Positions 2,488-28,285 of a stretch of 64,000 bases of DNA are shown here, piece by piece (position 1 is the stretch's first letter; every line of letters starts with the position of its first letter). Below the pieces are notes generated by a model. That model was not told the origin of the DNA. It did not search any database and saw only the letters and a list, made by a program, of their open reading frames with translations. Source of the DNA: an uncultured Gemmatimonadota bacterium (GTDB lineage: Bacteria > JAAXHH01); assembly GCA_951812955.1 (NCBI GenBank), contig OX638340.1, forward strand, positions 3,008,001-3,072,000, given 5' to 3'. The translations under genes and the position numbers were made by a program.

Positions 2488-3582
2488 ATGAAAACCTATC
2501 GCGTGGGAATCATCGGCCTGGGTCGCATGGGCAGTACCATCGACGACGAGGGCCACACACCCCTTCCTTACTCCATTGCCGCAGCCTGCCGGGCGAGTGA
2601 ACGGCTGGAAATCGCCGCGGGCTGCGACCTTCTGCCGGAACGCAGAGGGGATTTCACCCGGCGCTGGCGCGTCCATGCCGTGTACGAGGACTACACGGAA
2701 ATGGTCCGGGAGGAGCGACCGGATCTCGTCGCCGTATGCACCACCGCATCGGGCCTGCAGAAACCTGCCAGGGAGGCGCCCGACGCTTCGTTCCGTGGAG
2801 ATTCCCACGCCGAACTGGCCGTCGCGCTGGCTGAAATGGGCGTGCCGATGATCTACGTGGAGAAGGCCATGGCCAGCTCCATGGCGGCGGCGGACCGCAT
2901 TCGGGACGCCGTGAAGAAAAACGGCACGGTATTCAATACGGGTGTATTGAGGAGGTTCGACAACCGGTACGAGGTGGTCCGCAACGCTGTGCTTCGGGGG
3001 GATGTGGGCGAGCCCAGGGCGGCCATCCATTACGCGCAATCTTCCCTGATGCACGGCCACATACATTCCATCGATACCCTGTCCTGGCTGATCGGAGATC
3101 CCGCCATTTCGAGCGTTCGCGGTGAAATCGCGCCCAGGGATTACGTCATAGAAAACGACCATATTCCCTACGATCCGACCGCGACCTACGAACTGATGTT
3201 CGAGAACGGTGTACGGGCGTGGTCGATTCCCGCGGCGGGATGGGAGTACGAGATCATCGGGACCGAAGGGACCATCCGGTCCCTGAACAACGGGGCCGGC
3301 GCCTCGTTAAGAAGGGTTCCGCCGGGAGACGGACACGAGCGCAAGGGGCGCAGCAACTGGGAAGAGGCGCCTTTCGATTTCGTAACGCCAAAGAGCACCG
3401 TCGTATCCTGCCTCGAAGATCTTGTTAACGCATATGAGACGGGCCGCAAGAGCCTGGGGAACATCGAAACAGCCCACCACATCACGGAAGCCTGCATCGC
3501 CGTCGCCGAAAGCCATCGTCGCGGCGGTGCCTGGGTTGAACTACCGCTGGCTGGCCGGGACCTCTACATCTGGCACGTTTGA
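2488..3582 (+). CDS. Gfo/Idh/MocA-family NAD(P)-dependent oxidoreductase
   Basis: 364 aa. N-terminal Rossmann motif YRVGIIGLGRMGS and the family-typical EKAMA..S segment (VEKAMASSMAAADRIRDA). Confidence 0.8.
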   Translation: MKTYRVGIIGLGRMGSTIDDEGHTPLPYSIAAACRASERLEIAAGCDLLPERRGDFTRRWRVHAVYEDYTEMVREERPDLVAVCTTASGLQKPAREAPDASFRGDSHAELAVALAEMGVPMIYVEKAMASSMAAADRIRDAVKKNGTVFNTGVLRRFDNRYEVVRNAVLRGDVGEPRAAIHYAQSSLMHGHIHSIDTLSWLIGDPAISSVRGEIAPRDYVIENDHIPYDPTATYELMFENGVRAWSIPAAGWEYEIIGTEGTIRSLNNGAGASLRRVPPGDGHERKGRSNWEEAPFDFVTPKSTVVSCLEDLVNAYETGRKSLGNIETAHHITEACIAVAESHRRGGAWVELPLAGRDLYIWHV

Positions 3583-3657
3583 ATGCTCGATCGGAAGAAC
3601 ACGGGCTGACAAGGCAGCAATCGATTACACTAGTCGGACTAAAAGAGCGGGCTGTTC

Positions 3658-3873
3658 TCACTGACGACTATTGGAATCGTTGTACGTTACGAGGTCCGCG
3701 ATCGCAATCCGGATCATTCGGATGTCTTCCTTGATGTCTTCAAGCGTCGTTTTTACTCCACTTTCAAACCCCTCTCTCTTCCCCATCCAAAGGCACAGTT
3801 TTACTATAGCCCCGATTATAGCGATCAACAGTACGGTAACAACCGCCGGCAACCACGAAGGCATCGATTCCAT
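3658..3873 (-). CDS. Small single-pass membrane protein (hypothetical)
   Basis: 71 aa with one TM helix (SWLPAVVTVLLIAIIGAIVKLCLWM) and a charged tail. A good SD (AAAGGAAA) sits 6 nt upstream of the ATG. It lies inside an ~870-bp low-GC, otherwise non-coding tract (3590-4460). Confidence 0.4.
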   Translation of the reverse strand: MESMPSWLPAVVTVLLIAIIGAIVKLCLWMGKREGFESGVKTTLEDIKEDIRMIRIAIADLVTYNDSNSRQ

Positions 3874-4462
3874 CGGGTTTCCTTTCTGAGCAAATTTACC
3901 GTTCCGTGCGAAGGTTCACGAGAAGAATAGCTTGATCAGGATCGCGACGGTCATGACCGACTGGCCAATTGCTACCGTTTCGATGCGGGATAGGCGCTTG
4001 TCTCTATCTTTTCAATGATACCTTCCAGGCGTCCGATACGTCCTTCATGGTTCGTACTTTCGGCCGGCATGAACCAGTTTCATTCCTTCGGTGGCACTCG
4101 TTGTGCGGTGCAGAAGGTTTGAATTACAAGTTTCCCTGACCTCGTCTACTTTGTTTCCACCCTGTTTAAAAACCCCGTATATCCCGGAGTTTCTCACTTA
4201 TTTCAGCTTGCAGGCTACCCATTTCAGTTCCCATACACTTCGTCATACGCCCACGATGTCAGAGGTTCCTTTTTCCCTTAGTCGGGGAATGGCCTTGAAT
4301 CTCGTAATTAAAAAATGAAATCTCAGCGTACCGTTAAGTCGTCCGTGTTATCCTGGTCTTGTGGTCTTTAAAAGCGCTGGATAGAACCTCGTAGAATCAA
4401 AAGTGTCTTGGGCGGTCCATTGATTTGTAAGCGCATAGGTATTGCCCGATATTGGAAAGAAT

Positions 4463-5179
4463 TCATTGTCTTGAATGAAGTCTCTCAGGCAAGGGAAGAT
4501 TGGATTCCACCTGTACCAACCGGTCTTCTTCCAATACGTATCCACTCAGGGACCCGCCATAGACACATCCCGTGTCCAAGCCGATCACGTAAGGCGAACC
4601 GTCTCCCCGGCGTTTGGCGACAAGGCCGCCAGGCGCGTCGTGGCCGAAAATGATTAGTTTACCCGAGGGCTCATAGGCGTCATGCCATCTCGGTCCCACG
4701 ATGCCTTCCACGGGAGGCCAGGTTCGGATGACGAGAAACTCGTCCCGGGTAGTCCCTTGCAGGCCTTTTACCGGGTTGATGCCCGCGTGGACCAGGAGGA
4801 AATCGGGTTCGTCGATCCACAAGGGAAGCGATTCCAGCCAGGGGATCAGGGCTTCCGCGAAGGGTGCGAGGGCTTCCAGGGTTTGACGGTATACATGCCA
4901 TTTTACGGGCACCGGCTCTCCGGACAGGTGCCTGCGTAGCCGATCCGGCAGCCTGACATCGTGGTTGCCGAGGACCATCCTGGCATTGGTATCCTGGATC
5001 AGCTTCCACACTGCGACGGGATCCGGACCCTTGGTAAAAGCGTCGCCCGTCAGATAGAGGAGATCCGTATCCCGCTGGAATTCCAGTTTGGAGATCAGTT
5101 GTTCGAATTCACGGGCGCAGCCGTGAATGTCGCCGATGAACAGGGTACGCAAGGGAATACAGGACTCCGGAATGATCAA
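4463..5179 (-). CDS. Calcineurin-like metallophosphoesterase (ApaH / PrpE-type bis(5'-nucleosyl)-tetraphosphatase-like)
   Basis: 238 aa. Shows the GDIHG, GDAFTKG(P) and GNHD metallophosphatase motifs and a C-terminal GLDTGCVYGG motif typical of ApaH-like enzymes. Confidence 0.75.
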   Translation of the reverse strand: MIIPESCIPLRTLFIGDIHGCAREFEQLISKLEFQRDTDLLYLTGDAFTKGPDPVAVWKLIQDTNARMVLGNHDVRLPDRLRRHLSGEPVPVKWHVYRQTLEALAPFAEALIPWLESLPLWIDEPDFLLVHAGINPVKGLQGTTRDEFLVIRTWPPVEGIVGPRWHDAYEPSGKLIIFGHDAPGGLVAKRRGDGSPYVIGLDTGCVYGGSLSGYVLEEDRLVQVESNLPLPERLHSRQ

Positions 5180-5395
5180 TACACCGGTATATACGGATGG
5201 ATACGACGGCCCAAATTACGTCTACCGGAGAAAACGGAAGGCCTTAGATAATGGAAGACCGGTAATTTCGACATCCTGAATTATAACCGCGCGACTCGGG
5301 GAGGGTCAAGAGAATGAACTGCCAGGTAGGGCTCAGTTTGGAATGTTGCGACTGGCTCGTTACAGAACAACGCTCCCTATAATCGTTGAATACAG

Positions 5396-5433
5396 AAAAG
5401 CCCCGCTAACTGCAACGGGGCTTTTCCTTTTTT
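5396..5433. terminator. GC-rich palindromic hairpin with flanking T/A tracts (bidirectional intrinsic-terminator-like; repeat copy Y1)
   Basis: aaaagccccg-ctaactgcaa-cggggctttt followed by cctttttt on the + strand and preceded by ttgaatacagaaa (U-rich when read on the minus strand). It lies ~230 bp 3' of the collagen-like gene stop. Confidence 0.5.
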
Positions 5434-5664
5434 CGGGACCGATCGCCCTTTTCAGTGGCCGAAGCTCCTACTCAGGGCGAACGGGAAGGTGTAACGAAAT
5501 GACCGAGACAAATGCAGGGCGGATACTGAATCGATTGCTTGCCCTGTCGGGATAACTTCCGGGGGTCACTCGATACTTGGTCTGATGGGGTACATGAGAA
5601 GGTACCCCATCTCGCCACAGGAGTCTGTCAGCGCCCTGTCTACGGGACCCGGATTATCCCGATG

Positions 5665-7188
5665 TTAACTATCCAGCGGCGCCGTGATAGCTACCGTGAA
5701 ATGAATGCGCTTGGATACCGCACCATTTACCTTCAGTTCAACGATATAGTTCTTGGACTCTGCCCCGTCCGCGCCAATACCCACTGGGCCATTTGCTATT
5801 GGCGCACTGCTATCATTCGCGATCGGGTCTGAGTCATCGAAATTCTGCGCCGTAACCGTCACAGTAACTACACCGCCTGCTGCCGTTTCTGTGGCAACTA
5901 ACCCAACTGTTTCGGCCTTATTGCCACTGGTGACGGTGACGCCTAATGCGTTTTCATCGAAACCATCGATTCGTGCGTCAGAAATCGCATTATACAGTTC
6001 GACGGTAAACGTGGTGGAAGTGTTTCCGTCCTTCCACGCCGCCGTAGCCTGGTCTCGTTCCCACGTGAAGGTGCGAGTTTCCGGCTCGGTGTAGATTATG
6101 TCACGTGTGATGCTGGAACCGGAAACGCTGATATCGACGGAAGCCGACGAACCTTCGATAGTAGCTGAAATGGTAGCATCGCCACTGCTCTTTCCGGAGA
6201 TTGTTGCCGCGGCCCCGGCGGCCATCACAAACTTACCTGCCATTTCATGGCCTTTGGGGTGTTTATCGGCGCCAACACCAGCAGAGCCCGTATCACTAGC
6301 CCATTCGTAATTACCCATAGCACCCAAATTGGGTACCGCCTTATCGTCAGAATCAAGCGCACTGGCAGTAATCTTTGTGGTTTCACCGATGGCCAACGGG
6401 ATCAGGCTATCCTTGCTGAGCTTGACCTTGGCAACCGCATTGGAAACATTCACCGACAACTCACCGGCAACGAGATGGGTAGGTGACTTGAAGGATACCA
6501 TCGATGGACTGTACCCGTCATCTGCATCATAATTCGATGCAAGAGCAGTAATTACCCCATCTTCAACTGAAATACCCTCCTCTTCCTCGTCGATAGACCA
6601 AACCAGGTCAGCGCCTTCAATTATGCTGCCATCCTGTGTGCGGACTGCAGCTTTCACTGTAGCTTCCTGGCCTACTCTGAGAAGGATGCTCGTGCCGTCT
6701 CCAATTCTTGCCGGAGTAAGTTCTTCCAAAGCACCATACGCTTCGGACGAGTGCTCAAGCACCATAGCAGCAACATGGTCTGCTGCCAAGATACCGAGAA
6801 TCTCTTCCGGGCTTAAACCAGGAGGCAGTGTAGCTGCTTCACCTTGCGGACCCTGCTCACCTTGCGGACCTGCCGGCCCCGTGGCACCATCAGCGCCATC
6901 AGCGCCATCAGCGCCTGCCGGACCTGCCGGCCCCGTGGCACCATCAGCGCCATCAGCGCCATCAGCGCCTGCCGGACCTGCCGGACCCGTGGCACCATCA
7001 GCACCTGCCGGACCTGCCGGACCCGTGGCACCATCAGCACCTGCCGGACCAGTCGAACCCTGCGGGCCTGCCGGACCTGCCGGACCGCCCGGACCGCCCG
7101 GACCGCTCGGACCCGCGGGGCCGGTCTTACCCTCGCATCCCATCAGGGACAAACCGAAGGCCAATACAGCAATTATGAGGTAATGCAT
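5665..7188 (-). CDS. Collagen-like triple-helix-repeat surface lipoprotein with C-terminal Ig-like (Big-type) beta-sandwich domains
   Basis: 507 aa. Signal peptide with lipobox (LSLMGC), then ~33 uninterrupted G-X-Y triplets ([30 protein letters not shown]...), then ~370 aa of Ser/Thr/Val-rich Ig-like repeats. Strong RBS (GGGAGAA) lies 8 nt 5' of the ATG. Confidence 0.8.
6840..7130. repeat. Higher-order (~54-bp) tandem nucleotide repeats encoding the collagen G-X-Y tract
   Basis: Near-perfect reiteration of gcaccatcagcgccatcagcgccatcagcgcctgccggacctgccgg[c/a]cccgtg within the CDS. Confidence 0.8.
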
Positions 7189-7697
7189 TGTGTTCTCCCG
7201 TTTATGGAAACACTACTAATTAGGATTGACGAAAATTACGAAACTTGCCTATATCGCCTCCTTTCCCGCTAATGGATCGGTTGACTTAAATGCATTACAA
7301 GACTGCTAATTACAGACTCCTAGACTGGCGGATTTCAGTCCGCATTTAGATACTTTTCCCCTTAAATATGGTTAAATTGAGCCATCAGGAAGTGGTTGGC
7401 TCTCTTGTCCGGTTGATGCAAACGAGCGCCACACACGGCTGCAATCAGCCACCACACCCTGTACTGGCTGGGAGGTAGGAATCGTGTTACGTCAGGCAGG
7501 ATCAGGTGCGTCAGGTAAGGGAAAACGGGGGTGTTGAGATAGGGCGAAGTTGTTACTATCTATCATATCTACTGCCAAGGTGAATTGGCTTGAGTCTACC
7601 CTGCACGCAGCATATATTGACACGTGAGGCATATATCGACGAGGCTGTTGAGACGCAGGAGAACCGGAGATTTACCTAAGCTTTAGCGAGGTTCGAT

Positions 7698-9272
7698 TTG
7701 CGCAGAATTGGCCTATTCGGCTGGGGCATCGTAGCGCCCCGTTCGCCCAACATGGAAGCCTTTTCCCGAAACCTGGAGCAGTCGGAAAGCTGGCTTGCGC
7801 CTTTCGAAGGGTTCGGCCCCAACAACTTCCTGGTCGGGGAACCCGAATTCGACTTCCGGGACTACCGGGAATGGATCGATGCCCGATTCCCGTCGAACCG
7901 GTACCCCCGCCTGGTCGACAAGATGGACCCCACCACGCTGCATGCAGTCGGAGCCTTCATCCAGGCGTTGGAACAGAATCCGGGACTGGAAGGGGAACTC
8001 AAGGCGCTGGGAACGGCCGCCCACGTGTACATTGGTACTGGTGTGGGCAATATCCCCACGATCAGCCGGATCAGTATGGAGCTGTACCGGGCCCAGCGCG
8101 CGTGGGACCGGTTCTGGGGTTCGGCCGAACGGAATGCCCGGCTTCGCGCGTATCTCACTCGGCATGACGACGAAGACGAGGGCGAAGCCATCCCGCCCCA
8201 TCCTGAAACCACACCTTCCGCGGCGCGAGACCAGGCCGAAGAATCATGGAATGTCTACTGGACGTCCCAGTCTGAAGAGTTGAGGTCATACCTGGAGACG
8301 CTCGCCAGGATCGAGGGGATGAACGTCGAGGGGACCGTCGAATCAGGCAAGCTGAAACTCATCCGCGAAAAGCAGCGCCGCAAGCAACAACTGCAGGACG
8401 ATTGGGGCGCGCCCGAACCGCCATGGGAATGCGTCTCGGCCGACCTGATCTGGAACATCCATAACACGCCCGCGTCGCAGGTCACCATGATGGGGCAGAT
8501 TCACGGGCTGTCTCTTGCGCCCGTGGCCGCCTGCTCCACCTTCGGCGTGTGCCTTAAACTCGGCATGGACGCCATCCGGCGCGGCGAAGCGAAGGCGGTC
8601 GTCGTCGGCGCCACCGATCCGCCGCCCACGGCCCTGCTGGTGGGCGCCTTCTACCGCGCCCGTGTTTCCGCTGCAGACGGCGCCGTTTCCAAACCCCTGA
8701 CCGGGCTGCGCGGCACCCACGTCTCGGGCGGCTCCGTGCTGTGGATCATCGGGGACTACGAATACATGACGGAGAAGGGGTTCAATCCGATCGGGATGGA
8801 GCCGCTGGCCGTGGGCGTCAGTTCCGACGCCGACCATATCATCACGCCATCGAAGGAAGGACCGCAGATAGCGGTCCACCAGGCTATTGCGGATGCCCGC
8901 GTCTCCCCCGAAGACATCGCCTCGTGGGACCTGCACGCGACGGCGACGCCCGGCGATTTCCTGGAAATGGAGAACCTGCTCGAAATGGTGCCCGGCTCCG
9001 TGACGGTTACCGCGCGGAAAGGCACCTTCGGCCATGGCATGAGCGCCGGAGGAGGGTGGGAACTGACGGCGCAATACCTCGGCTACGAACGGGGCGCGCT
9101 ATATCCCACGCCCCTTTCCCAAGACGAGGTGAATCCGGAAATCGGCGGACTTCACTCCCGGTTCGTCTACGATACATCCTGCCCGCTCCCCGAAGGTATC
9201 GCCGGCAAGCTGTCCATGGGGATCGGCGGCATCAACGCCTGTGTCATTTCCCGGCCGCTTAAAGATGACTGA
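7698..9272 (+). CDS. Beta-ketoacyl synthase (thiolase-fold condensing enzyme)-like protein with a large internal insertion; stand-alone
   Basis: 524 aa. KAS-I/II-like N-terminus (RRIGLFGWGIVAPRSPNMEAF). Active-site Cys context AACSTFG. Both catalytic His contexts are present (HATATPGDFLE, GHGMSAGGGWE), as is the C-terminal GIGGINACVI. A ~110-aa insertion (residues ~130-240) is not found in FabB/FabF. TTG start with GAGGT SD. No ACP, AT or KR genes nearby. Confidence 0.65.
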   Translation: MRRIGLFGWGIVAPRSPNMEAFSRNLEQSESWLAPFEGFGPNNFLVGEPEFDFRDYREWIDARFPSNRYPRLVDKMDPTTLHAVGAFIQALEQNPGLEGELKALGTAAHVYIGTGVGNIPTISRISMELYRAQRAWDRFWGSAERNARLRAYLTRHDDEDEGEAIPPHPETTPSAARDQAEESWNVYWTSQSEELRSYLETLARIEGMNVEGTVESGKLKLIREKQRRKQQLQDDWGAPEPPWECVSADLIWNIHNTPASQVTMMGQIHGLSLAPVAACSTFGVCLKLGMDAIRRGEAKAVVVGATDPPPTALLVGAFYRARVSAADGAVSKPLTGLRGTHVSGGSVLWIIGDYEYMTEKGFNPIGMEPLAVGVSSDADHIITPSKEGPQIAVHQAIADARVSPEDIASWDLHATATPGDFLEMENLLEMVPGSVTVTARKGTFGHGMSAGGGWELTAQYLGYERGALYPTPLSQDEVNPEIGGLHSRFVYDTSCPLPEGIAGKLSMGIGGINACVISRPLKDD

Positions 9273-9554
9273 CGGACGGAAATCCCTCCTGTCTTAGCTG
9301 AGATAACAAGGGCTCCCGGTTTGTCGGACGTGGGCAGGGCTCGATTTACGGGTTTTCCACCTGGTCGATGCAACTCTTTATGCCTTTATCCACGACAAGC
9401 TGGTGGCAACGCAATGGCGCCGTCTTTACCGCGCCAATAGCCCTCTTCGCACTAATGACTTATTTGCATGTTTCCATGATTTAACACTGCCAGCCCGTTC
9501 CGGAAACTGCCTCCGGCAGATCAGACGAAGTAAGGAAACAGCAGGAATAGTATA

Positions 9555-9642
9555 GTGTTCTCCGTTTATGGGCACTAACGCTTTCCTGACCAACTGATTA
9601 ATCCTTGAATACAGAATAGCCCCGTGGTCACCACGGGGCTAT
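9555..9642. repeat. Composite repeat: second copy of the collagen-gene leader motif (X2) followed 26 bp later by a second copy of the terminator-like palindrome motif (Y2)
   Basis: X2 gtgttctccgtttatgg (9555-9571) matches 7190-7207 in 17 of 18 positions. Y2 ttaatccttgaatacagaatagccccg...cggggctat (9598-9642) matches taatcgttgaatacagaaaagccccg...cggggctttt at 5380-5425. X2 is followed by no start codon or ORF. Confidence 0.75.
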
Positions 9643-10232
9643 TCACTTTCAATATGATTATGCTGAGCATCAGGTATGAGAAAGTTTGAAAATTGAACCA
9701 ATTACCAGACAGTTTGTGATTTGATGTTGACGTTGGATCAATTACTAAATAACATGGATGTGTATTTTACGTGATCGTACTTTTGTAAGAGAATTAAAAT
9801 AAAGTATAATACGAATAATGATGAAAAAATATAAGTTTTTTCTTGACTTATTACTCAACGTAACCATATATATACGGATAAATATCACAAAAAAATCATT
9901 TTTTGTCACGATATGGTTGACTTGGCCCTGCAACCAAGCGTACCTTACAATCTAAAGATTCAACAGAAGATAATAAGGAAGCCGTCATGACGGGTTAACA
10001 TGCCCTAAATTCAACCGCGAGCACACAGTCGATCCCGTTGTAGGGGACGCAGCCCAAACCCCCGGGCAACGGTATTCGATCCTGCAGACTACGCCGTCCG
10101 AAATGCGTTAAACCGTCTCATTCATCACACAGGAACATCGAGGCAGGAGTTAGCGGCTTAATTTTCTGCCTATCTCACCCTGAAGAACACGATATATCGA
10201 TCTCGCCCATGAGAGCGTGATGAGCCTCTTGC

Positions 10233-11192
10233 GTGGAGATAGTACCGGGTACCATGCAGCTACGCATTTCCTTACAGTCTCCCCTCGACAGCAAGGCCGA
10301 TCCGTTGTCCATTGATGTCGCGCGCTTGCTGCATGCCAGCATTGCGCCGAACACGGCGAAGGCGTACGGCGATGCATTGCGCAAGTTGTTCGAGCATCTG
10401 GATGGGCAGACACTGACCGACGCTGCGCTGGCCGGTTACCTGGCGCACTTGTATGCCAAAGGACTGGCGCCGGCTTCGGTCACGGTAGTGGTACAGGCCG
10501 TCCGTTTCTGGGAAAAGCTGGAAAACCGCCCGTCCAGTGTCGAGTCGTTGACGAGTCGAACACTGGCCGGAATCCGACGCGAAGGTCGAAACCGGGGCCG
10601 CGGCCAGGTAACCGGGCTGACCCGAGAAACGGTCAATCTCATGGTTCAGAACGCCATCAATACCGACACACTGGCCGGACTGAGAGACGCCGCTCTGTTT
10701 CGTGTAATGAGCGATGCCCTGTTGCGGATTGGGGAAGCCGTCGCCATCGACTGTGAGCACATCACCACCGAGTTCGACGGGAGCGGGCGGCTGATGTTGC
10801 TTCGAAGCAAGACCGACCAGGAGGGAAAGGGTACCAGTCTCTTCCTGACCAACCGTACCGTCGACGCGATCCGGCAATTGCAGCATGGAGCGGGGTTCAC
10901 CACCGGCCCCCTCTTCCGCCGGATGGTGAAGGGCGACCGAATGTGCGACGGCCGTCTGACGGTGGACGGCGCCCGGCTGACTATCAAAGCGTCTGCGGAG
11001 CGGGTCGGTATCAAGGGCGTGAGCGGCCACAGTCTTCGCATCGGAACCGCCCAGGAACTCGCGCAGCGCGGCGCATCCCTGGTGGAATTGCAGAACGCCG
11101 GCCGATGGACCGACAGCCAGATGCCCGCGCACTACACCCGTGAGCAGGCCGCGGGCAAGGGTGCCGTCGCCCGCTTGCTGGGGATTGACTGA
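10233..11192 (+). CDS. Cre-like tyrosine site-specific recombinase (phage-integrase family)
   Basis: 319 aa. The C-terminus aligns well with P1 Cre (GHSLRIGTAQELAQRGASLVELQNAGRWTDSQMPAHYTRE...ARLLGID versus Cre GHSARVGAARDMARAGVSIPEIMQAGGWTNVNIVMNYIRN...VRLLEDGD). This includes the catalytic H-x-x-R, W and Y. The N-terminal SAM-like domain is also Cre-like (YLAHLYAKGLAPASV). GTG (10233) or ATG (10254) start. A 550-bp AT-rich tract lies upstream. Confidence 0.8.
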   Translation: MEIVPGTMQLRISLQSPLDSKADPLSIDVARLLHASIAPNTAKAYGDALRKLFEHLDGQTLTDAALAGYLAHLYAKGLAPASVTVVVQAVRFWEKLENRPSSVESLTSRTLAGIRREGRNRGRGQVTGLTRETVNLMVQNAINTDTLAGLRDAALFRVMSDALLRIGEAVAIDCEHITTEFDGSGRLMLLRSKTDQEGKGTSLFLTNRTVDAIRQLQHGAGFTTGPLFRRMVKGDRMCDGRLTVDGARLTIKASAERVGIKGVSGHSLRIGTAQELAQRGASLVELQNAGRWTDSQMPAHYTREQAAGKGAVARLLGID

Positions 11193-11200
11193 GGGGAGAC

Positions 11201-20218: not shown

Positions 20219-21388
20219 TTAGTCTCTCAGGGCGAAAAGCACGTTCTGACCAGAAAAATTATCCGGTACGAGCAATTCGATGGATACCCTGTCGCCAGAG
20301 GGATGGAATGCGACGACGTAGTCCTGGCCGTCCCTGAAAGTGCGCGGGAACACGTCCACTTTCTTGATACTGTCCAACGACGGGAAGGCCGACCGTTCGA
20401 TCGTAAGTACCGTGCCTTCACGCAGGTCCTGCGACTGGGAGAAGTCCACGCCGGAGAGAGATTCGACACGGGGGCCGCCGAAGAACGGATCCTTGATGAC
20501 CATCGAGTCTTTCCAGTGATCCATGGTATTTACTGCGTAGAATATGGAGTTCAACTTCATCTCGGCCGCCAGCTTTGCCTGTTCCTCCATGTCCCGCTGT
20601 GCCAGCGCCTCGTCGCGGGCATCGCTCAACATCGCGATTTGCCCCGTCAGGCGTTCTTCCTCGCTGCGGAGGAATACGATACGCTCTTCGAGCATGTCCT
20701 TGACCTGGCCCAGCGAATCGGCGATGAACGCCGCACGGGCCTCGGCCGCGTCGCGCTCGTCGGTCAGCGTGGAGATGGTGCGCTCGATGCGCGCCCTGGC
20801 GATGCGTTGCGCACGGCCCGGCGACATGTCAGCCGTTCCCTGCGTCACGTAGGTGCCGAGGATGCCGTCCTTGTAGAGCAGCCAGACCTGGTTGCCGACG
20901 TTCAGGTCCTCCACCAGCGCGGTTTGCTCAACCACGTCGCGGGCTTCGGCTGTCGAAAGGCCGTGATTCTCCATGAGGTACTGCAGGGTGACCTGGATGT
21001 GGGAATCACCGCGCTGCACCGTGTAAGGCGCCGGAAGATCGTCTCGAAGATCCTGCATCTGCTGCTGCAGTTCCGCGACCTCGCCCCGGGTATCGATGAT
21101 CTCCTGTACGAGACCGCGGTACGAGACGTCCGCCTCGGTGGCCAGCATTTCGTTCAAAACGGCTTCGTGGTCGGGATTCAGCGCCATATTGGTCAACGAT
21201 TCCGCATCGACCTGACGATCAGGATGCGTTTCGTTGAACTGCGCTATCGTCGCCTGGATCGCATCCTGTCTTTCGCGGATTTCCTGCTCCGTAGCGTCCA
21301 ACCGTTCAACGAGCTCCTCGAAGTTCGCAGGTTCGGTGGCGCAGCCCATGAGCAGCGTCATGGATAGCAGTACGAATATACCTCGCAT
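20219..21388 (-). CDS. Lipoprotein with an extended coiled-coil region and a LysM-like motif (hypothetical)
   Basis: 389 aa. Lipobox LLMGC, a long E/R/Q-rich heptad-like region, and a YTVQRGDSHIQVTLQYL LysM-like segment. Confidence 0.5.
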   Translation of the reverse strand: MRGIFVLLSMTLLMGCATEPANFEELVERLDATEQEIRERQDAIQATIAQFNETHPDRQVDAESLTNMALNPDHEAVLNEMLATEADVSYRGLVQEIIDTRGEVAELQQQMQDLRDDLPAPYTVQRGDSHIQVTLQYLMENHGLSTAEARDVVEQTALVEDLNVGNQVWLLYKDGILGTYVTQGTADMSPGRAQRIARARIERTISTLTDERDAAEARAAFIADSLGQVKDMLEERIVFLRSEEERLTGQIAMLSDARDEALAQRDMEEQAKLAAEMKLNSIFYAVNTMDHWKDSMVIKDPFFGGPRVESLSGVDFSQSQDLREGTVLTIERSAFPSLDSIKKVDVFPRTFRDGQDYVVAFHPSGDRVSIELLVPDNFSGQNVLFALRD

Positions 21389-22098: not shown

Positions 22099-22428
22099 AT
22101 GAGGTTACACGCGTGCTTCCGGCAACAACTCGGCCGGTCTCCTACCTGCCTGGCAGAAGCGGCTTGGTTTAACTTAGCCTTATCGTGGTTCTCATACATA
22201 TTTATGTCAATAGGAATCTGGGATCAACCGAGTACCGTTGTCGAACCCTGATGAAGTCACAATACGGCTTGACAGACCTGCGGTTTCGCCTACATTTATC
22301 TGTACCCACATTAAGCGGACCTTGTCCCTTGGTGTCGTGGTGCCATTACCCTCGATCTGATCGAACGCCTACCGGAACCGAAGAGGCAGACCGATATCCG
22401 GCGGTACGGATCAGCGCGCTCCTTCCGG

Positions 22429-24582
22429 ATGCCGGCGTTGCCGATAGCGGATATCCCGTACATGTCTCAAATCACCTCGCACCAGGATGCAGAACGACAA
22501 ACGAGTGAAGCGGTGCCGAACATTTCGTCCAGGCCGCCTGCCGATGCCCCGGTCGAAACCCGACCCGTGACCTACGTGTTCACCGGAGGCGGGACGGGCG
22601 GCCACGTCTATCCGGGTCTGGCCATCGCCGACGAGGTCCGGTCCCGGAACCCCGGGGTCCGGATCGTGTACATCGGCGCACGGGGCAGGATGGAAGCCTC
22701 CCTCGTGCCGAAGCGAGGCTATCCGATACACCTGGTCCATGCACGTGGACTGCCGTCGGGCAGGCGGGTTCTTGCGCTCCTGGGATTCGCGGCCTACACC
22801 GGATTCGGCGTTTTTCAAAGCCTGTTCCACCTGGTGCGGCATCGACCCCGCATGATTGTCGCCACGGGCGGCTATGCCAGCAGTCCCGTTCTCCTGGCCT
22901 ACTGGATGCTCAGAACACTCCGTCTCGCGGGGGCCTGTCGGTGTTTCGTCCACGAACAAAACGTCGTGCCCGGGAAGGTCAACCGTCTGGCCGGACGAAT
23001 CGCGGACCGTATCGGCGTATCTTTCGAAGCGTCGTTGCGACATTTTCCTGCGGGGAAGGCGACGTGGACGGGCTATCCAGTCAGGACGGAGATCGGCGCC
23101 GTGTCGGGCGCCGAAGCGCGTAGTTCACTGGGGCTTCCGTCCGAAGCGAAGGTCATTTTCGCCTTCGGCGCTTCGTCGGGCGCCCGTTCCATCAACCGGG
23201 CCGTGGTCGACGCGCTGCCCCGCCTGCTGTCCAGGCAGGATATCCACGTCATCCACGTTATCGGACAGACCCGAAGTCCGGATTACCACGCCGAAGCCGA
23301 CACCCTGGACCGCCTTGAGAGACTCGACCTCACCGATGAACAGCGGTCGAGATACCTCCAATCAGAGTACTCCCACGAAATCGAAACGCTCTACGCCGCC
23401 AGCGACCTGGTTATCACCCGTTCCAGTGCAGGGGTCATCACGGAGATCGGCATTTGCGGTATACCGTCCGTACTCGTACCGCTGCCCTACGCGCCCGGCG
23501 ACCATCAGGCCGTGAACGCCAGGACGCTCGAATCGAGCGGCGCGGCCAGCGTGGTGTACGAATCGATTTCCATGGAGAACGGCCAGACCATTGGCGAGGT
23601 CAACGGAGTGCGCCTGGCCCGTCTGGCCCTCGAGATCCTGGACGATCCGGCCCGACGCGACGCCATGATCCGGCGTGCGCGGGAGACCTTCGATCGCGGC
23701 GGGCTGGACCGGATCGCCGACCAGTTGGATCAGATATCGACAGACCGGCCGTCGGACCGGGTTCTCTCCAATGGCAGGCCCGATGAACCCGATGTTGCCG
23801 GGTCCGTTTTTCCCCCCGAACACGTGTTTTCCGCGTTTTCCCTGGTCCGCCGGTTCACGACGGACCGCGATCAGACATTCATCGACTCCGTGGGAGAAGA
23901 CTACCTCAAGTACCGTGTCGACGGATACCTCAAGAGCGCGCGCTGGCAGATCCGGAACGAAGGCGTCAAACTCGTCGGACTGCTCGGCTACCGGGATCGC
24001 CTGCCCTTCATCCTTGCGCTGCTGCGCGACAAGACACCGGCGCCCAGGTTGCAGCGGTTGTTTGGGGGAGATTACAGGCAGGTCGGCTTCATTCGCAGGA
24101 ACGCCGTGACGACGATCAGCCAGCTCGGTGTCTACGATACGCCGGTGCGCGCCACGCTGCTGGACCTGTTGTCGGATCCCTATTACGAAGTCCGGTCGGC
24201 CGCCGCCAGGGGTTTCGCCGCCCTCGCTCCGGAAACCGGGGATAGGGACGACGAGGTCCTGGGCGGACTGCGCGGCCTGTTGCGGGAATCCTCCTTCGAA
24301 GTCCGGTCTGCCGCCATACTCGCCATGGGCAAAACGGGCGACGGCGCCGTCGCGGAATGGCTCAGGCCCTTTTACCAGGACCCGAACGGGAAGGTCCGCC
24401 AGGCCGTCATCGACGCCCTGAACGACCTGGTCAGGAGGAAGATGATCGACGACCTGGATGGACTGCGCGAAGAACTCGACGGGATTCTGATCACCAGCAA
24501 TCACTTCGACCCGGACTTCCCGATTAAACGTACGCTGAACCGGCTGATCGACATGATCCGCCGTCAGCAGGAATCCCCATGA
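22429..24582 (+). CDS. murG: MurG-type GT28 glycosyltransferase (UDP-GlcNAc:undecaprenyl-PP-MurNAc-pentapeptide GlcNAc transferase-like) fused to a C-terminal HEAT/PBS-lyase-like repeat domain
   Basis: 717 aa. The MurG N-terminal G-loop TGGGTGGHVYPGLAIADE is present. The donor-binding half runs ~22550-23700, and an ~300-aa C-terminal extension carries repeated SDPYYEVRSAAARGFAAL / SSFEVRSAAILAMGKTGD / NGKVRQAVIDALNDL HEAT-like units. The start may be the internal Met at 22462. It sits directly upstream of mraY. Confidence 0.7.
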   Translation: MPALPIADIPYMSQITSHQDAERQTSEAVPNISSRPPADAPVETRPVTYVFTGGGTGGHVYPGLAIADEVRSRNPGVRIVYIGARGRMEASLVPKRGYPIHLVHARGLPSGRRVLALLGFAAYTGFGVFQSLFHLVRHRPRMIVATGGYASSPVLLAYWMLRTLRLAGACRCFVHEQNVVPGKVNRLAGRIADRIGVSFEASLRHFPAGKATWTGYPVRTEIGAVSGAEARSSLGLPSEAKVIFAFGASSGARSINRAVVDALPRLLSRQDIHVIHVIGQTRSPDYHAEADTLDRLERLDLTDEQRSRYLQSEYSHEIETLYAASDLVITRSSAGVITEIGICGIPSVLVPLPYAPGDHQAVNARTLESSGAASVVYESISMENGQTIGEVNGVRLARLALEILDDPARRDAMIRRARETFDRGGLDRIADQLDQISTDRPSDRVLSNGRPDEPDVAGSVFPPEHVFSAFSLVRRFTTDRDQTFIDSVGEDYLKYRVDGYLKSARWQIRNEGVKLVGLLGYRDRLPFILALLRDKTPAPRLQRLFGGDYRQVGFIRRNAVTTISQLGVYDTPVRATLLDLLSDPYYEVRSAAARGFAALAPETGDRDDEVLGGLRGLLRESSFEVRSAAILAMGKTGDGAVAEWLRPFYQDPNGKVRQAVIDALNDLVRRKMIDDLDGLREELDGILITSNHFDPDFPIKRTLNRLIDMIRRQQESP

Positions 24583-24589
24583 GCGCCCT

Positions 24590-25699
24590 ATGATCTATCA
24601 CCTGGTCACGTACCTGTTCGATACCGTCGATTCACTATCGTTTCTGCGCCTTTTCCAGTACCTGAGCTTCCGCGCCATCTGCGCGGCGCTGACGGGATTC
24701 GGCGTAACGCTGCTATTCGGCCAACGCATCATCCGCCTGTTGTACGTGAACCACGTGCGGGACAATCCCCGGACGCACGGCGAGGTTTCCACCGCCTCGA
24801 AGGCCGGTACGCCGCTCATGGGCGGGCTGCTGATCATCGCGTCCATTTTCGCCAGCATCCTGCTTTGGAGCGACCTGCTCAACCGCTTCACCATGGTCTT
24901 CCTGCTCGCACTGGTCTGGTTCTCCCTGTTCGGTTTCATCGACGACTACCGGAAGGTCAGGTACCGGGACAGCGACCGCGGCCTGTCCCAGGCCGCCAAG
25001 CTGTTTTTTCAGGCGGTGTTCGGCTTCGGCTTCGGACTGATCTTCCTGCTGCCCGACCTGTCACCCGTGTCGGCGGAGATCTCATCGGAACTCTATCTCC
25101 CCTTCGTCAAGGACCCTGTCCTCGACCTGGGCTGGTGGTACCTGCCCTTCATAGCCTTCGTCATAGTGGCAATTGCCAACGCGGTGAATTTCGCCGACGG
25201 CCTGGACGGACTGTCTATCGTACCGGTCTCGTTCACGGTGGTTGTGTACGGGGTGTTCGCCTATGTCATAGGAAACGCCATCTATTCCGGATACCTGCAA
25301 TTCACCTACCTGCCGGGCAGCGGTGAATTGACGGTGATCTGTGCGGGAGTATTCGGCGCTTGCATGGGTTTCCTATGGTACAACGCCTATCCCGCCCAGG
25401 TATTCATGGGCGACGTCGGCGCCCTGCCCCTGGGTGGGATCGTCGGCACTCTTGCCGTACTGCTCAAACAGGAGTTCCTCTTCGTCATCACCGGCGGGAT
25501 CTTCGTCGCCATGGCCTTCTCGGTCCTGGTGCAGGAAAAGATCGGAATCAGATGGCTCGGCCGGCGCATCTTCTACATGGCGCCGCTCCATCATGCCTTC
25601 CAGTACCGGGGCCTGGCCGAGACGAAGGTCGTGATCCGGATCTGGATCATCGCGGGTATCCTGGCGATCATCGGACTGTCTACGCTGAAGATCCGGTAG
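24590..25699 (+). CDS. mraY: Phospho-N-acetylmuramoyl-pentapeptide transferase
   Basis: 369 aa, 10 TM. Canonical MraY N-terminus (MIYHLVTYLFDTV..FRLFQYLSFRA) and the KAGTPLMGG, GFIDDY, NAVNFADGLDGL and HHAFQ motifs. Confidence 0.85.
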   Translation: MIYHLVTYLFDTVDSLSFLRLFQYLSFRAICAALTGFGVTLLFGQRIIRLLYVNHVRDNPRTHGEVSTASKAGTPLMGGLLIIASIFASILLWSDLLNRFTMVFLLALVWFSLFGFIDDYRKVRYRDSDRGLSQAAKLFFQAVFGFGFGLIFLLPDLSPVSAEISSELYLPFVKDPVLDLGWWYLPFIAFVIVAIANAVNFADGLDGLSIVPVSFTVVVYGVFAYVIGNAIYSGYLQFTYLPGSGELTVICAGVFGACMGFLWYNAYPAQVFMGDVGALPLGGIVGTLAVLLKQEFLFVITGGIFVAMAFSVLVQEKIGIRWLGRRIFYMAPLHHAFQYRGLAETKVVIRIWIIAGILAIIGLSTLKIR

Positions 25700-25725
25700 G
25701 CGCGGCGGAAGGGCGGTGGCCTCAA

Positions 25726-26820
25726 GTGATCGAGATACAGTATACGAAGTGGATTCCCCGCGTCGACGATGTCGAAGACCGACTCGAACAACTGTTCGGC
25801 CTGTTGAGCCAGATTCTCATCCATACCAGCGGCGACGTGGAGGAAGCCCTGAAATGGATGCGCTACATCGACCAGCGCCAGGGCATCTTCGACGACAACA
25901 TCAGCTATGAATCCTTCGTCAAGGAACTCGAAAAGCGGGGTTACGTAAAGCAGGACGAAAACGAGTTCACCCTCACTGAAAAGGGCGGGCGGCGTATCCG
26001 CGAGGATTCGCTCCGCTTTGTCTACGGCAGTCTCAAGAAGGGATTGAGCGGGGGGCACGAGACGCCCTTCGAGGGGGAAGGCGTGGAAAGACTGAGCGAG
26101 ACCCGTCCCTACCGCTACGGCGACCAGGCGTCGAACGTCGATTTTACCTCTACCCTCGGCAATGCGATCCGCCGGTCCGGATTCAATCTGGACCTGCACG
26201 AGGACGACTTCGAGGTCTACGAGGTCGAACACACCACGTCATGCGCTACCGTCATGCTCCTAGACGTCAGCCACAGCATGATCCTCTACGGCGAGGACCG
26301 CATTTCCCCGGCCAAGCGAGTGGCCATGGCCCTGGCGGAGCTCATTCTCCGCAAGTACCCGAAGGACGAACTGCATCTCGTCCTCTTTGGCGACGACGCG
26401 AAGCAGGTGAAGATCGAAGACCTGCCCTACGTCTCGGTCGGCCCTTACCACACGAACACCAAGGCCGGCCTCCTCATGGCCCGGAACATCCTGCGCCGGA
26501 CCCGGAACGTCAACAAGCAGGTCTTCATGATTACCGACGGCAAGCCTTCGGCCATCTACGACCGGAACGGCCGCCTGTACCTGAATTCATTCGGTCTTGA
26601 CCCCCGGATCGTGAACCGGACCCTCGACGAGGCCATAACCTGCCGCCGGGAGAAGATCACCATCAGCACCTTCATGGTCACCCAGGATCCCTACCTTGTC
26701 GGCTTCGTGGAGAAACTCACGGAGATGAACCACGGCCGCGCCTATTACTCCTCGCTCGACAGCCTGGGTGAGTACATTCTCGTGGACTATGTCAAGAACC
26801 GCCGCCGCCGGGTGAATTGA
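25726..26820 (+). CDS. von Willebrand factor type A (VWA) domain protein, CoxE-like
   Basis: Proposed GTG start at 25726 with a GAAGGG SD, 365 aa. The track ORF 25360.. overlaps mraY in another frame. The C-terminal VWA has a MIDAS DxSxS (LLDVSHSM) and a TDG motif (MITDGKPSA). The ~190-aa N-terminal domain is of unknown function. Confidence 0.65.
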   Translation: MIEIQYTKWIPRVDDVEDRLEQLFGLLSQILIHTSGDVEEALKWMRYIDQRQGIFDDNISYESFVKELEKRGYVKQDENEFTLTEKGGRRIREDSLRFVYGSLKKGLSGGHETPFEGEGVERLSETRPYRYGDQASNVDFTSTLGNAIRRSGFNLDLHEDDFEVYEVEHTTSCATVMLLDVSHSMILYGEDRISPAKRVAMALAELILRKYPKDELHLVLFGDDAKQVKIEDLPYVSVGPYHTNTKAGLLMARNILRRTRNVNKQVFMITDGKPSAIYDRNGRLYLNSFGLDPRIVNRTLDEAITCRREKITISTFMVTQDPYLVGFVEKLTEMNHGRAYYSSLDSLGEYILVDYVKNRRRRVN

Positions 26821-27121: not shown

Positions 27122-28285
27122 GTGGAACGGGGACTGAGTGGCACCTATGACCGAATGACCATAGGTGGAGAAACGGTACAGGCCTTTGTACCGCTGCCAT
27201 TGCCTCCCAATCCACGACTGGATCTGGACGGACCGCTACAACAGTTATTCGAATCTGCGGTACTCGCCCTGGGACGGCTCGACAGCATTACGACGCTCCT
27301 CCCCGATGAGGAGCTTTTCCTTTATGCCTACGTGCGTAAGGAAGCGGTACTTTCTTCCCAGATCGAAGGCACTCAGTCTTCATTATCAGACCTTTTGCTC
27401 TTCGAACTAGAAGATGTCCCAGGCACACCAAACATCGATGTACATGAAGTCTCAAATTATGTAGCGGCGATGGAACATGGATTAAATCGTCTGAAGAATA
27501 ACTTCCCGTTATCGAATCGACTGATCCGCGAAGCACATAAAATACTATTGTCTCACGGTCGAGGCAGTTCCAAGTCTCCGGGTGAATTCAGACGGTCGCA
27601 GAACTGGATTGGAGGCACTCGCCCGGGCAACGCCATCTATGTGCCTCCACCACAAACGGTCTTACCGGACTGCATGGCCGAGTTCGAGCGTTTTCTGCAC
27701 ACGGAGGACGACGGGTTGCCCGTGTTGCTACGTGCGGGACTGGCCCATGTTCAGTTTGAGACCATCCACCCGTTTCTCGATGGGAACGGTCGAGTTGGTC
27801 GGTTGCTTATCACGTTGCTGTTATGCCAAGCAGGGATACTGCACCAACCCATGCTGTACTTGAGCTTGTACTTCAAGCAACATCGCAGCGAATACTACGA
27901 GTTGCTTAACAACGTACGCCTCACCGGCAACTGGGAAGAATGGCTTTCCTTTTTCCTTGAAGGAGTTAAAATCACAGCCGACGGCGCGGTCGGTACGGTT
28001 CAGCGACTCAACACAATGTTCAGACTGGATCGAGACAGGATCGAGGAGGTCGCAGGTAGAAAAGCCGGATCAGCGCTACGTGTACACGAAGCACTTAAAT
28101 CTCAAATGCTTCTGTCTCTTCCTGCTACCCGTCTCAAAACCGGTCTGTCTTATCAGGCAACAGCCACTGCCATGGATCTACTGGTTTCACTGGGTATCGC
28201 ACAGGAAATCACGGGGAAGCGCCGCAACCGGCTCTACGTTTATAAAAAGTATTTGTCTATTCTCAACGAAGGGACCGAAGTTTAG
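27122..28285 (+). CDS. Fic-family protein (class II, canonical AMPylation motif) with C-terminal winged-helix domain
   Basis: 387 aa. Core motif HPFLDGNGRVGR matches HPFx[DE]GNGRxxR. The N-terminal inhibitory motif SSQIEG matches [ST]xxxE[GN] upstream of the core. GC is ~50%, and a 250-bp AT-rich tract lies upstream. Confidence 0.85.
   Translation: MERGLSGTYDRMTIGGETVQAFVPLPLPPNPRLDLDGPLQQLFESAVLALGRLDSITTLLPDEELFLYAYVRKEAVLSSQIEGTQSSLSDLLLFELEDVPGTPNIDVHEVSNYVAAMEHGLNRLKNNFPLSNRLIREAHKILLSHGRGSSKSPGEFRRSQNWIGGTRPGNAIYVPPPQTVLPDCMAEFERFLHTEDDGLPVLLRAGLAHVQFETIHPFLDGNGRVGRLLITLLLCQAGILHQPMLYLSLYFKQHRSEYYELLNNVRLTGNWEEWLSFFLEGVKITADGAVGTVQRLNTMFRLDRDRIEEVAGRKAGSALRVHEALKSQMLLSLPATRLKTGLSYQATATAMDLLVSLGIAQEITGKRRNRLYVYKKYLSILNEGTEV

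What the first reader, a model, noticed from the sequence alone, without database searches (positions are those of the whole stretch)
22429..26820. MurG fused to a HEAT-repeat domain, directly followed by mraY and a CoxE-like VWA protein, away from a classical dcw cluster
The GT28 MurG (G-loop TGGGTGGHVYPG) carries an ~300-residue C-terminal HEAT/PBS-lyase-like repeat extension (EVRSAAARGFAAL, EVRSAAILAMGKTGD, KVRQAVIDALNDL). It is followed 8 bp later by a canonical MraY (KAGTPLMGG, GFIDDY, NAVNFADGLDG). A 365-aa VWA/MIDAS protein with a novel ~190-aa N-terminal domain follows that. The usual murD/ftsW genes between mraY and murG are absent, and the gene order (murG before mraY) is reversed. 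A HEAT scaffold on MurG suggests recruitment into a protein complex (divisome or elongasome-like), or use of this MraY/MurG pair for a second lipid-linked glycan pathway. The antisense 380-aa ORF (23362-24504) is an artefact of GC-rich DNA.
Basis: partly seen in the sequence, partly recalled or inferred. Interest (0 to 1): 0.5.

Follow-up and report, generated by a model that had tools for sequence, protein, structure and literature searches.

The report
MurG–HEAT fusion operon with MraY
The enzyme that completes the cell-wall building block lipid II (MurG) carries an extra protein-docking (HEAT) domain here and always sits directly before MraY, the enzyme for the preceding step; this arrangement recurs in many little-studied bacteria and has not been described in the papers I could search.

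Summary
One continuous ORF (22429/22462–24582) encodes a MurG-type GT28 glycosyltransferase, a roughly 26-residue disordered linker and a roughly 255-residue HEAT solenoid. mraY starts 7 nt after its stop, and a VWA gene follows 26 nt after mraY. There are no other dcw genes in the 64 kb.

It is not a frameshift and not peculiar to this genome. A scan of species-representative genomes gave 402 confirmed hits. Of the best 80, 76 show a single ORF of at least 640 aa, and mraY lies directly downstream wherever the contig continues, usually overlapping by 4 nt or 7 nt away. These genomes are labelled Latescibacterota/Gemmatimonadota, Zixibacteria, Fermentibacteria, KSB1, Myxococcota and Syntrophobacteria.

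Variants link MurJ to the same unit: murJ|murG-HEAT|mraY, MurJ-MurG-HEAT and MurG-MurJ-HEAT. In KSB1, murG, the HEAT gene and mraY are separate.

Best reading: this is a compact operon for the membrane steps of peptidoglycan precursor synthesis. The HEAT module probably docks MurG onto MraY and/or MurJ; that step is inferred.

Unresolved: whether a canonical dcw murG/mraY pair also exists elsewhere in these genomes.

The VWA protein belongs to a known, widespread family (PF27098 + VWA_2). It is not CoxE-like, its N-terminus is not novel, and it is linked to mraY only in the closest clade.

The parts
22269..22296 (+). sigma-70-like promoter candidate (TTGACA-16-TACATT) upstream of murG-HEAT
   Evidence: Consensus scan gave 10 of 12 matches. 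This is a pattern match only, not evidence of function.
22429..24582 (+). murG-HEAT fusion gene (717 aa from the ATG at 22429; more likely 706 aa from the ATG at 22462)
   Evidence: The 100%-identical protein P0001 is 706 aa. The AlphaFold2 model has pLDDT 87.7 and pTM 0.84.
22567..23739 (+). MurG (GT28, GT-B fold) catalytic part, residues about 47-437
   Evidence: Pfam GT28 N and C domains match. TIGR01133 gives 213 bits over model positions 8-349. The best structural matches are MurG 1F0K, 3S2U and 7D1I. The G-loop, HEQN, GxSxGA, R..A....E and DHQ..NA motifs are invariant or nearly so in the family.
23740..23817 (+). disordered linker of variable length, residues about 438-463
   Evidence: pLDDT is below 50 for residues 448-459. 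Length varies and there are large insertions in homologues.
23818..24573 (+). HEAT / PBS-lyase-like alpha-solenoid, residues about 464-715
24590..25699 (+). mraY (369 aa)
   Evidence: TIGR00445 gives 299 bits, above the cut-off of 192. It aligns end to end with E. coli MraY at E 9e-83, with DDY, NAVN..DGLDG and MGDVG conserved. The loop-E motif is HHAFQ instead of HHH.E.
25726..26820 (+). VWA/MIDAS protein of the PF27098 (Rv0959_3rd) + VWA_2 family (364 aa, GTG start). Probably co-transcribed, but linked to mraY only in the closest clade.
   Evidence: It is present after mraY in most of loci L002-L025 that extend far enough (absent in L018) and absent from the more distant loci.
23362..24504 (-). 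antisense 380-aa ORF, judged not to be a gene
   Evidence: No Pfam hit. It lies opposite a frame that is conserved at 37-100% identity across more than 100 homologues.

Best explanation
This is a compact operon for the membrane-associated steps of peptidoglycan precursor synthesis. MraY would make lipid I and the GT28 part of the fusion would add GlcNAc to give lipid II. MurG is extended by a flexible linker and a HEAT-repeat solenoid, a fold that generally binds other proteins.

The HEAT module always sits directly upstream of a tightly or translationally coupled mraY. In some lineages it is fused or adjacent to MurJ, the lipid II flippase. I therefore propose that it docks peripheral MurG onto its integral-membrane partners, MraY first and MurJ where fused, so that lipid I is handed directly to MurG and lipid II to the flippase.

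Shown here: domain identities, continuity of the fusion, its wide conservation, the invariant murG-HEAT then mraY order, and the MurJ variants.

Inferred: the enzymatic activities, the HEAT partner, and that this is the housekeeping pair rather than an extra one.

The VWA gene is a lineage-specific passenger from a different system (an AAA+ ATPase/VWA pair).
For: - **MurG identity.** Pfam GT28 N and C domains match. TIGR01133 aligns full length. The closest solved structures are MurG, with TM-score (target-normalised) 0.90 to 3S2U. Donor- and acceptor-binding motifs are invariant across 63 homologues.
- **MraY identity.** It scores above the equivalog cut-off, and the catalytic Asp motifs align with E. 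coli MraY.
- **Fusion is real and widespread.** There were 402 confirmed hits among species-representative genomes; 76 of the best 80 are a single ORF.
- **Invariant gene order.** mraY lies directly downstream in every locus with enough DNA. The start offset is mostly -4 or +7 nt. All 9 sampled top MraY homologues sit next to MurG-HEAT.
- **MurJ linkage.** Seen as murJ|murG-HEAT|mraY (L086), MurJ-MurG-HEAT (L085, L037) and MurG-MurJ-HEAT (L091). The two MurJ parts tested (L085, L086) score 270-278 bits, above the TIGR01695 cut-off of 235.55.
- **HEAT stays with mraY.** It remains next to mraY when it is split from MurG (KSB1) and when MurJ is inserted.
- **Co-divergence.** Pairwise distances of the GT28, HEAT and MraY parts correlate at r about 0.97.
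- **Constraint.** Among close relatives MraY is as conserved as SecDF.
Against: - I could not check whether the same genomes also carry a canonical dcw-embedded murG and mraY. If they do, this is not the housekeeping pair.
- Every member of this MurG clade tested (the window protein and six relatives) scores 213-240 bits, just below the TIGR01133 equivalog cut-off of 250.25.
- The linked MraY clade has a relaxed loop-E motif. Only the first His of HHH is invariant and Glu is replaced by Gln. All four solved MraYs keep HHH.E. This could mean altered substrate handling.
- No direct evidence identifies what the HEAT domain binds. The r of about 0.97 is also what shared ancestry alone would give.
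- The clade spans phyla that are not sister groups, so horizontal spread of an accessory operon is possible.
Confidence: 0.55

Rival explanations
1. This is a second, specialised MraY/MurG(/MurJ) module that coexists with canonical dcw-encoded copies. It could serve a spatially or temporally distinct mode of wall synthesis, or build a related but different lipid-linked glycan.
For: - The MurG parts fall just below the equivalog cut-off.
- The MraY loop-E HHH.E motif is degenerate in the whole linked clade.
- The operon is never in a dcw context in about 90 loci.
- The clade spans unrelated phyla, with MraY identities of 48-57% between them, as expected for a mobile or anciently paralogous unit.
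- There is precedent for a non-dcw alternative lipid II synthase: MglA (PMC8092295).
Against: - MraY and MurJ both pass their equivalog cut-offs.
- MurG donor-binding residues are those of UDP-GlcNAc-using MurG.
- Conservation among close relatives equals that of SecDF.
- No second GT28 or MraY was found within 10 kb either side in any locus.
- No accessory glycan or polymerase genes are conserved next to the operon.
Confidence: 0.27
2. The pair makes lipid I and lipid II, but the HEAT domain recruits MurG to something other than MraY or MurJ. Candidates are the cytoskeleton or divisome (MreB, FtsZ/FtsA), the cytoplasmic Mur ligases, or a regulator.
For: HEAT solenoids are generic protein-binding scaffolds. 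MurG is reported to associate with MreB and divisome proteins in model bacteria (my own knowledge, not tested here). The flexible linker of variable length would suit reaching a soluble partner.
Against: The only genes invariably linked to the HEAT module are murG and mraY, with murJ in some lineages. No cytoskeletal or Mur-ligase gene is conserved nearby.
Confidence: 0.15
3. The fusion is an assembly or sequencing artefact: a frameshift joining murG to a separate HEAT gene.
For: In KSB1 genomes the two parts are separate genes, so a split state does exist in nature.
Against: 76 of 80 independent assemblies, including several closed chromosomes, have the single ORF. More than 100 database proteins are full length. 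The whole chain, including the junction, is modelled as one confident protein.
Confidence: 0.01

Closest known systems
Canonical MurG and MraY of the dcw cluster (e.g. E. coli; structures 1F0K/1NLM, 3S2U, 8G01, 4J72)
   Same: The GT-B fold and the G-loop, HEQN and DHQ..NA motifs match MurG. The full MraY architecture with its catalytic Asp motifs matches MraY. The expected chemistry is lipid I then lipid II.
   Different: There is an extra linker and a 255-residue HEAT solenoid on MurG. Gene order is murG then mraY with nothing between, outside any dcw cluster. The MurG score is below the equivalog cut-off. The MraY loop-E HHH.E motif is relaxed.
MglA, the alternative lipid II synthase of Kitasatospora/Streptomyces (PMC8092295)
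   Same: It is a MurG homologue encoded outside the dcw cluster, about 31% identical to canonical MurG, and shown to make lipid II.
   Different: MglA is described as an extra copy that can replace MurG in actinomycetes. The abstract reports no HEAT domain, mraY coupling or MurJ fusion. Here the copy number is unknown.
PBS-lyase-type HEAT proteins (CpcE/CpcF, NblB, E. coli YibA) and designed alphaRep proteins
   Different: There is no membership: NblB scores 34 bits against a cut-off of 300, and CpcE scores 28 against 330 (that test used the KSB1 stand-alone HEAT protein). There is no bilin context. The family-specific loops (GGDY and F-x-P-x-F) are not part of the repeat consensus.
Rv0958/Rv0959-type AAA+ ATPase + VWA pairs (the family of the third gene)
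   Same: The VWA protein is about 60% identical to Bacteroidota and Ignavibacteria homologues that carry PF27098 (Rv0959_3rd) + VWA_2.
   Different: In the two contexts sampled, the homologue follows a roughly 503-aa gene: in L089 with faint AAA_5/Mg-chelatase hits, and in L090 with no Pfam hit on record but 73% identity to the L089 protein. No such gene is in this window or in the related loci. Here the VWA gene follows mraY instead.

Membership tests
MurG (GT28; NCBIfam TIGR01133 equivalog) | Two-domain GT-B fold with Pfam GT28 N- and C-terminal domains | tested here: met
   PF03033 E 3e-26 and PF04101 E 7e-21. Foldseek top hits are 1F0K, 3S2U and 7D1I.
MurG (GT28; NCBIfam TIGR01133 equivalog) | N-terminal glycine-rich loop GGTGGH, plus donor-site residues (R-x-x-A-x-x-x-x-E and [DQ]-[HQ]-Q-x-x-N-A) | tested here: met
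   T52-H59, R331/A334/E339 and D358-H359-Q360/N363-A364 are invariant or nearly so in 63 homologues. They align to the corresponding residues of P. aeruginosa and E. coli MurG.
MurG (GT28; NCBIfam TIGR01133 equivalog) | Score at or above the curated equivalog cut-off (250.25 bits) | tested here: not met
   213.4 bits here, and 213-240 bits for six other clade members.
MurG (GT28; NCBIfam TIGR01133 equivalog) | Transfers GlcNAc from UDP-GlcNAc to lipid I | not testable with these tools
   Inferred only from motifs and from linkage to mraY and murJ.
MraY (NCBIfam TIGR00445 equivalog) | Score above the curated cut-off, and full-length polyprenyl-phosphate N-acetylhexosamine-1-phosphate transferase architecture | tested here: met
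   299.4 bits against a cut-off of 192.05. WecA scores only 17.5 bits. E is 9e-83 to E. coli MraY over residues 16-369.
MraY (NCBIfam TIGR00445 equivalog) | Catalytic Asp residues (the DDxxK pair and the Asp of MGDVG) and the NxxNxxDGxDG motif | tested here: met
   GFIDDYRK, NAVNFADGLDG and FMGDVG all align with the E. coli sequence.
MraY (NCBIfam TIGR00445 equivalog) | Loop-E HHH motif followed by Glu (P-x-H-H-H-x-E) | tested here: not met
   The window has PLHHAFQ. Across the linked clade only the first His is invariant. All four solved MraYs have HHH.E.
HEAT / PBS-lyase-like repeat proteins | Tandem helix-turn-helix repeats that form an alpha-solenoid and match Pfam HEAT_2 | tested here: met
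Phycobiliprotein lyase / NblB family | Score above the NblB or CpcE equivalog cut-offs | tested here: not met
   NblB scores 34 bits against 300. CpcE scores 27.6 against 330; that test was made on the KSB1 stand-alone HEAT protein, not the window protein.
CoxE-like VWA proteins (PF05762) | Match to the VWA_CoxE model | tested here: not met
   No PF05762 hit at E up to 0.1. The best match is VWA_2 at 36 bits.
PF27098 (Rv0959_3rd) + VWA_2 family | N-terminal PF27098 region followed by a VWA domain with a MIDAS motif, about 365 aa | tested here: inconclusive
   Nearly all of the 120 listed homologues (58-98% identity, almost all full length) carry PF27098 + PF13519 in the precomputed annotation. 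PF27098 gave no hit in the local Pfam scan, probably because the local copy lacks it. The D-x-S-x-S motif is at residue 180.

The most novel reading that the evidence does not exclude
In at least 80, and possibly about 400, species-level lineages from six or more phyla, the dcw-embedded mraY and murG have been replaced by a single translationally coupled module. In this module a HEAT domain physically couples MurG to MraY, and MurJ in some lineages. The module would be a hard-wired lipid II 'synthesome', and the natural MurJ fusions in two different orders would be direct evolutionary evidence that synthesis and flipping of lipid II occur in one complex. The relaxed MraY loop-E motif would then mark the HEAT docking site.
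Probability: 0.3. Interest if true: 0.7.

Novelty: new variant of a known kind. Interest (0 to 1): 0.5.

Why it matters
MraY, MurG and MurJ are essential antibiotic targets. Whether they work as one complex that channels lipid I and lipid II is still argued, mainly from interaction data in model bacteria.

A conserved natural fusion that ties MurG to a docking domain would be independent comparative evidence for such a complex. So would its constant position next to mraY and its repeated fusion with MurJ in either order.

It would also give tractable constructs for structural work. The operon occurs in cultured strains such as Desulfacinum infernum DSM 9756 and D. hydrothermale DSM 13146.

There is an annotation consequence too. 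These MurG proteins fall just under the NCBIfam cut-off and are named only 'glycosyltransferase'. Automated pathway reconstructions may therefore report murG as missing in these phyla.

Tried and rejected
**Second murG/mraY in the same genome.**
- I hoped a paralogue would appear in the MraY protein search under the same contig-length fingerprint (3,813,436 bp). The 120 listed hits were all members of the linked clade at 51% identity or more, so nothing could be concluded.
- An exact-sequence look-up of the window's MraY found no record.

**Literature.** Searches for MurG+HEAT, MurG+MurJ fusion, dcw in Gemmatimonadetes or Latescibacteria, and Syntrophobacter murG gave nothing relevant. The main dcw-evolution paper is not held.

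**AFDB fold search.** I wanted it to find named UniProt members, but the library was unavailable.

**ATPase partner of the VWA protein.** tblastn against the window and all loci gave no hit.

**Rejected ideas.**
- A frameshift artefact.
- A phycobilin-lyase function for the HEAT part.
- A CoxE-like identity for the VWA protein.
- Coding potential of the antisense ORFs.

**Conserved flanking genes.** Other clades have Sua5, PanE, purD/purE, RecG and PilZ nearby. These are unrelated housekeeping genes, conserved only within clades.
Full report
**Observation**

The ORF list and translations confirm three co-directional genes.
- The first is a 717-aa ORF at 22429-24582. The 100%-identical database protein is 706 aa, so the ATG at 22462 is the likelier start.
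- The second is a 369-aa ORF at 24590-25699, starting 7 nt after the first gene's stop.
- The third is a VWA ORF. Its plausible start is the in-frame GTG at 25726, 26 nt after the mraY stop, giving 364 aa.

Pfam places the GT28 N and C domains at residues 50-196 and 242-378 of the first protein, and HEAT_2/HEAT repeats at 555-685. NCBIfam gives murG TIGR01133 at 213 bits, under the cut-off of 250.25, and mraY TIGR00445 at 299 bits, over the cut-off of 192.

The rest of the window encodes SecDF, LigA, an ammonium transporter, the ribosomal-protein/rpoA block, rpoB/rpoC, two tuf copies and tRNAs. It contains no dcw gene.

**Is the fusion real?**

A search of 5.8 billion proteins returned more than 100 full-length homologues of 660-800 aa with the same GT28+HEAT architecture, at 37-100% identity.

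A scan of one genome per GTDB species gave 402 tblastn-confirmed hits. The best 80 were fetched with 10-kb flanks. 76 of these 80 contain one uninterrupted ORF of at least 640 aa. Three of the exceptions run off a contig end. The fourth (L056) shows both MurG domains, but my greedy ORF picker chose an antisense ORF there. Several loci come from closed chromosomes.

AlphaFold2 with a 63-sequence alignment models the whole chain confidently (pLDDT 87.7, pTM 0.84). Only the N-terminal 36 residues and residues 448-459 are disordered. A frameshift artefact is excluded.

**What the parts are**

The best solved-structure matches to the full model are E. coli, P. aeruginosa and A. baumannii MurG, with a target-normalised TM-score of up to 0.90. 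The G-loop TGGGTGGH, HEQN, GxSxGA, R331/A334/E339 and D358-H359-Q360/N363-A364 are invariant or nearly so. They align with the UDP-GlcNAc-binding residues of solved MurG.

Many of its invariant residues are the repeat consensus (D-P-x-x-E-V-R). A GGDY loop (546-549), Y492, W506 and F693-x-P695-x-F697 are specific to this family.

MraY aligns end to end with E. coli MraY (E 9e-83), and all the Asp-containing motifs are conserved.

**Context in relatives**

In every locus with enough downstream DNA, mraY follows murG-HEAT on the same strand. The projected start is most often 4 nt inside the upstream gene, or 7 nt after it, which suggests translational coupling.

Nothing else is conserved across clades. 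Flanks encode Sua5, PanE, PurD/PurE, RecG, a PilZ protein and others. No dcw cluster lies within 10 kb in about 90 loci.

All nine top MraY homologues that I looked up sit next to the HEAT module, in five architectures:
- fused MurG-HEAT (Fermentibacteria and others: L081, L087, L088, L093);
- three separate genes murG | HEAT | mraY (KSB1: L083, L084);
- murJ | murG-HEAT | mraY (L086);
- MurJ-MurG-HEAT of about 1,200 aa (L085, L037);
- MurG-MurJ-HEAT of 1,333 aa (L091).

The two MurJ parts tested (L085 and L086) pass the MurJ equivalog cut-off, at 270-278 bits against 235.55.

An exhaustive HMMER search with the HEAT domain alone found it in three kinds of protein:
- MurG-length fusions;
- fusions of about 1,200-1,340 aa, of which the two checked with Pfam contain MurJ;
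- short stand-alone or truncated proteins.

Beyond these it matched only generic multi-HEAT proteins.

Pairwise divergences of the GT28, HEAT and MraY parts correlate at r about 0.97. Among close relatives MraY (89-99% identity) is as conserved as SecDF, while MurG-HEAT (74-97%) evolves about as fast as LigA.

**Interpretation**

The simplest reading is that this is the cell's lipid I/lipid II synthase pair, organised as a self-contained operon, with the HEAT solenoid as a docking device.

The partner is inferred from gene linkage. HEAT is the module that always abuts mraY. It stays there when it is separated from MurG, and it stays there when MurJ is inserted between them. Two independent fusion orders with MurJ argue that MurG, MurJ and the HEAT module act together at the membrane.

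The linker varies in length and is disordered, which fits a tether. A subset of Syntrophobacteria-type proteins also has an N-terminal hydrophobic helix.

**What does not fit neatly**

- Every member of this MurG clade tested (the window protein and six relatives) scores just under the equivalog threshold.
- The linked MraY clade has lost strict conservation of the loop-E HHH.E motif. The window has HHAFQ, and only the first His is invariant in the clade. E. coli, Aquifex, C. bolteae and a fourth solved MraY all keep HHH.E. This could be co-adaptation to a bound HEAT domain, or a sign of divergent function.
- The clade unites candidate phyla of the Fibrobacterota-Chlorobiota-Bacteroidota (FCB) superphylum with Myxococcota and Syntrophobacteria/Desulfarculales, at MraY identities of 48-57%. 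That fits ancient paralogy or horizontal spread as well as vertical descent.
- I could not determine whether these genomes also contain a canonical dcw murG and mraY. This is the key discriminator between the main explanation and the 'second module' rival, so my confidence stays moderate.

**The VWA gene**

It is about 60% identical to a very large family in Bacteroidota and Ignavibacteria that is annotated PF27098 (Rv0959_3rd) + VWA_2. In the two contexts sampled, the homologue follows a roughly 503-aa gene. In one of them that gene has faint AAA_5/Mg-chelatase hits.

That partner gene is absent from the window and from all related loci. The VWA gene follows mraY only in the closest clade, where MurG identity is 51% or more.

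It has an intact MIDAS motif and gave no CoxE match. I treat it as a co-transcribed neighbour specific to this lineage, not as part of the conserved system.

**Source organism**

The nearest relatives are metagenome-assembled genomes labelled Gemmatimonadetes or Latescibacterota by different submitters. Several isolate names suggest sponge or coral hosts; that is my inference from the names.

**Novelty**

The architecture is abundant in sequence databases, but it is named only 'glycosyltransferase' or MurG. Full-text searches found no description of a MurG-HEAT or MurG-MurJ-HEAT protein.

The closest published parallel for a non-dcw lipid II synthase is MglA of Kitasatospora (PMC8092295). I rate this as a new variant of a known kind. 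It is of moderate interest in itself, and of more interest if the HEAT-MraY/MurJ complex and the replacement of the dcw copies are confirmed.

Noticed in passing
window 24590-25699, and MraY genes of L001-L093: The whole MraY clade linked to MurG-HEAT has a degenerate loop-E motif. Only the first His of HHH is invariant and the following Glu is Gln. All four solved MraYs have HHH.E.
   Followed up: partly
L091 8001-12002; L085 6178-9792; L037 8411-12010: Natural triple fusions occur in two different orders: MurG-MurJ-HEAT (1,333 aa) and MurJ-MurG-HEAT (about 1,200 aa). Each is followed directly by mraY.
   Followed up: partly
L083 and L084, 8055-11110: In two KSB1 genomes murG (387 aa), the HEAT protein (232 aa) and mraY are three separate consecutive genes. 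This is a split form of the module.
   Followed up: partly
window 20219-21388 (-): A 389-aa predicted lipoprotein (lipobox LLMGC) with no significant Pfam hit is transcribed divergently from murG-HEAT. It is conserved at that position in the close clade, at 79-98% identity among relatives L002-L023. A perfect TTGACA-17-TATAAT promoter-like site lies at 21494-21466 (-).
   Followed up: partly
window 27122-28285 (+): A Fic/DOC-family gene has 51.7% GC against 59.3% for the window. It is absent from this position in the closest complete relative (L002), so it is probably a recent insertion between the VWA and UDG genes.
   Followed up: partly
window about 2000-11200: This stretch has lower GC (0.53-0.56). 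It contains a collagen-triple-helix-repeat protein (5665-7188, -), a divergent ketoacyl-synthase-like ORF (7698-9272, +) and a tyrosine integrase (10233-11192, +). It may be a genomic island.
   Followed up: no
window 45798-46988 (-) and 61854-63044 (-): There are two tuf (EF-Tu) copies. They are 395/396 aa identical and 98.7% identical in DNA, which suggests gene conversion.
   Followed up: partly
P0102, P0104, P0109, P0112, P0114, P0116 (Syntrophobacteria-type, about 700-726 aa): These MurG-HEAT proteins carry an N-terminal hydrophobic, TM-like helix that the window protein lacks. The window protein's first 36 or so residues are disordered.
   Followed up: no
L087 1858-6125; L088 2397-6966: In two metagenome contigs a BatA/BatB/BatD-type VWA operon lies directly upstream of murG-HEAT. 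It is unrelated to the window's PF27098-type VWA gene, so the shared VWA theme is probably coincidental.
   Followed up: no
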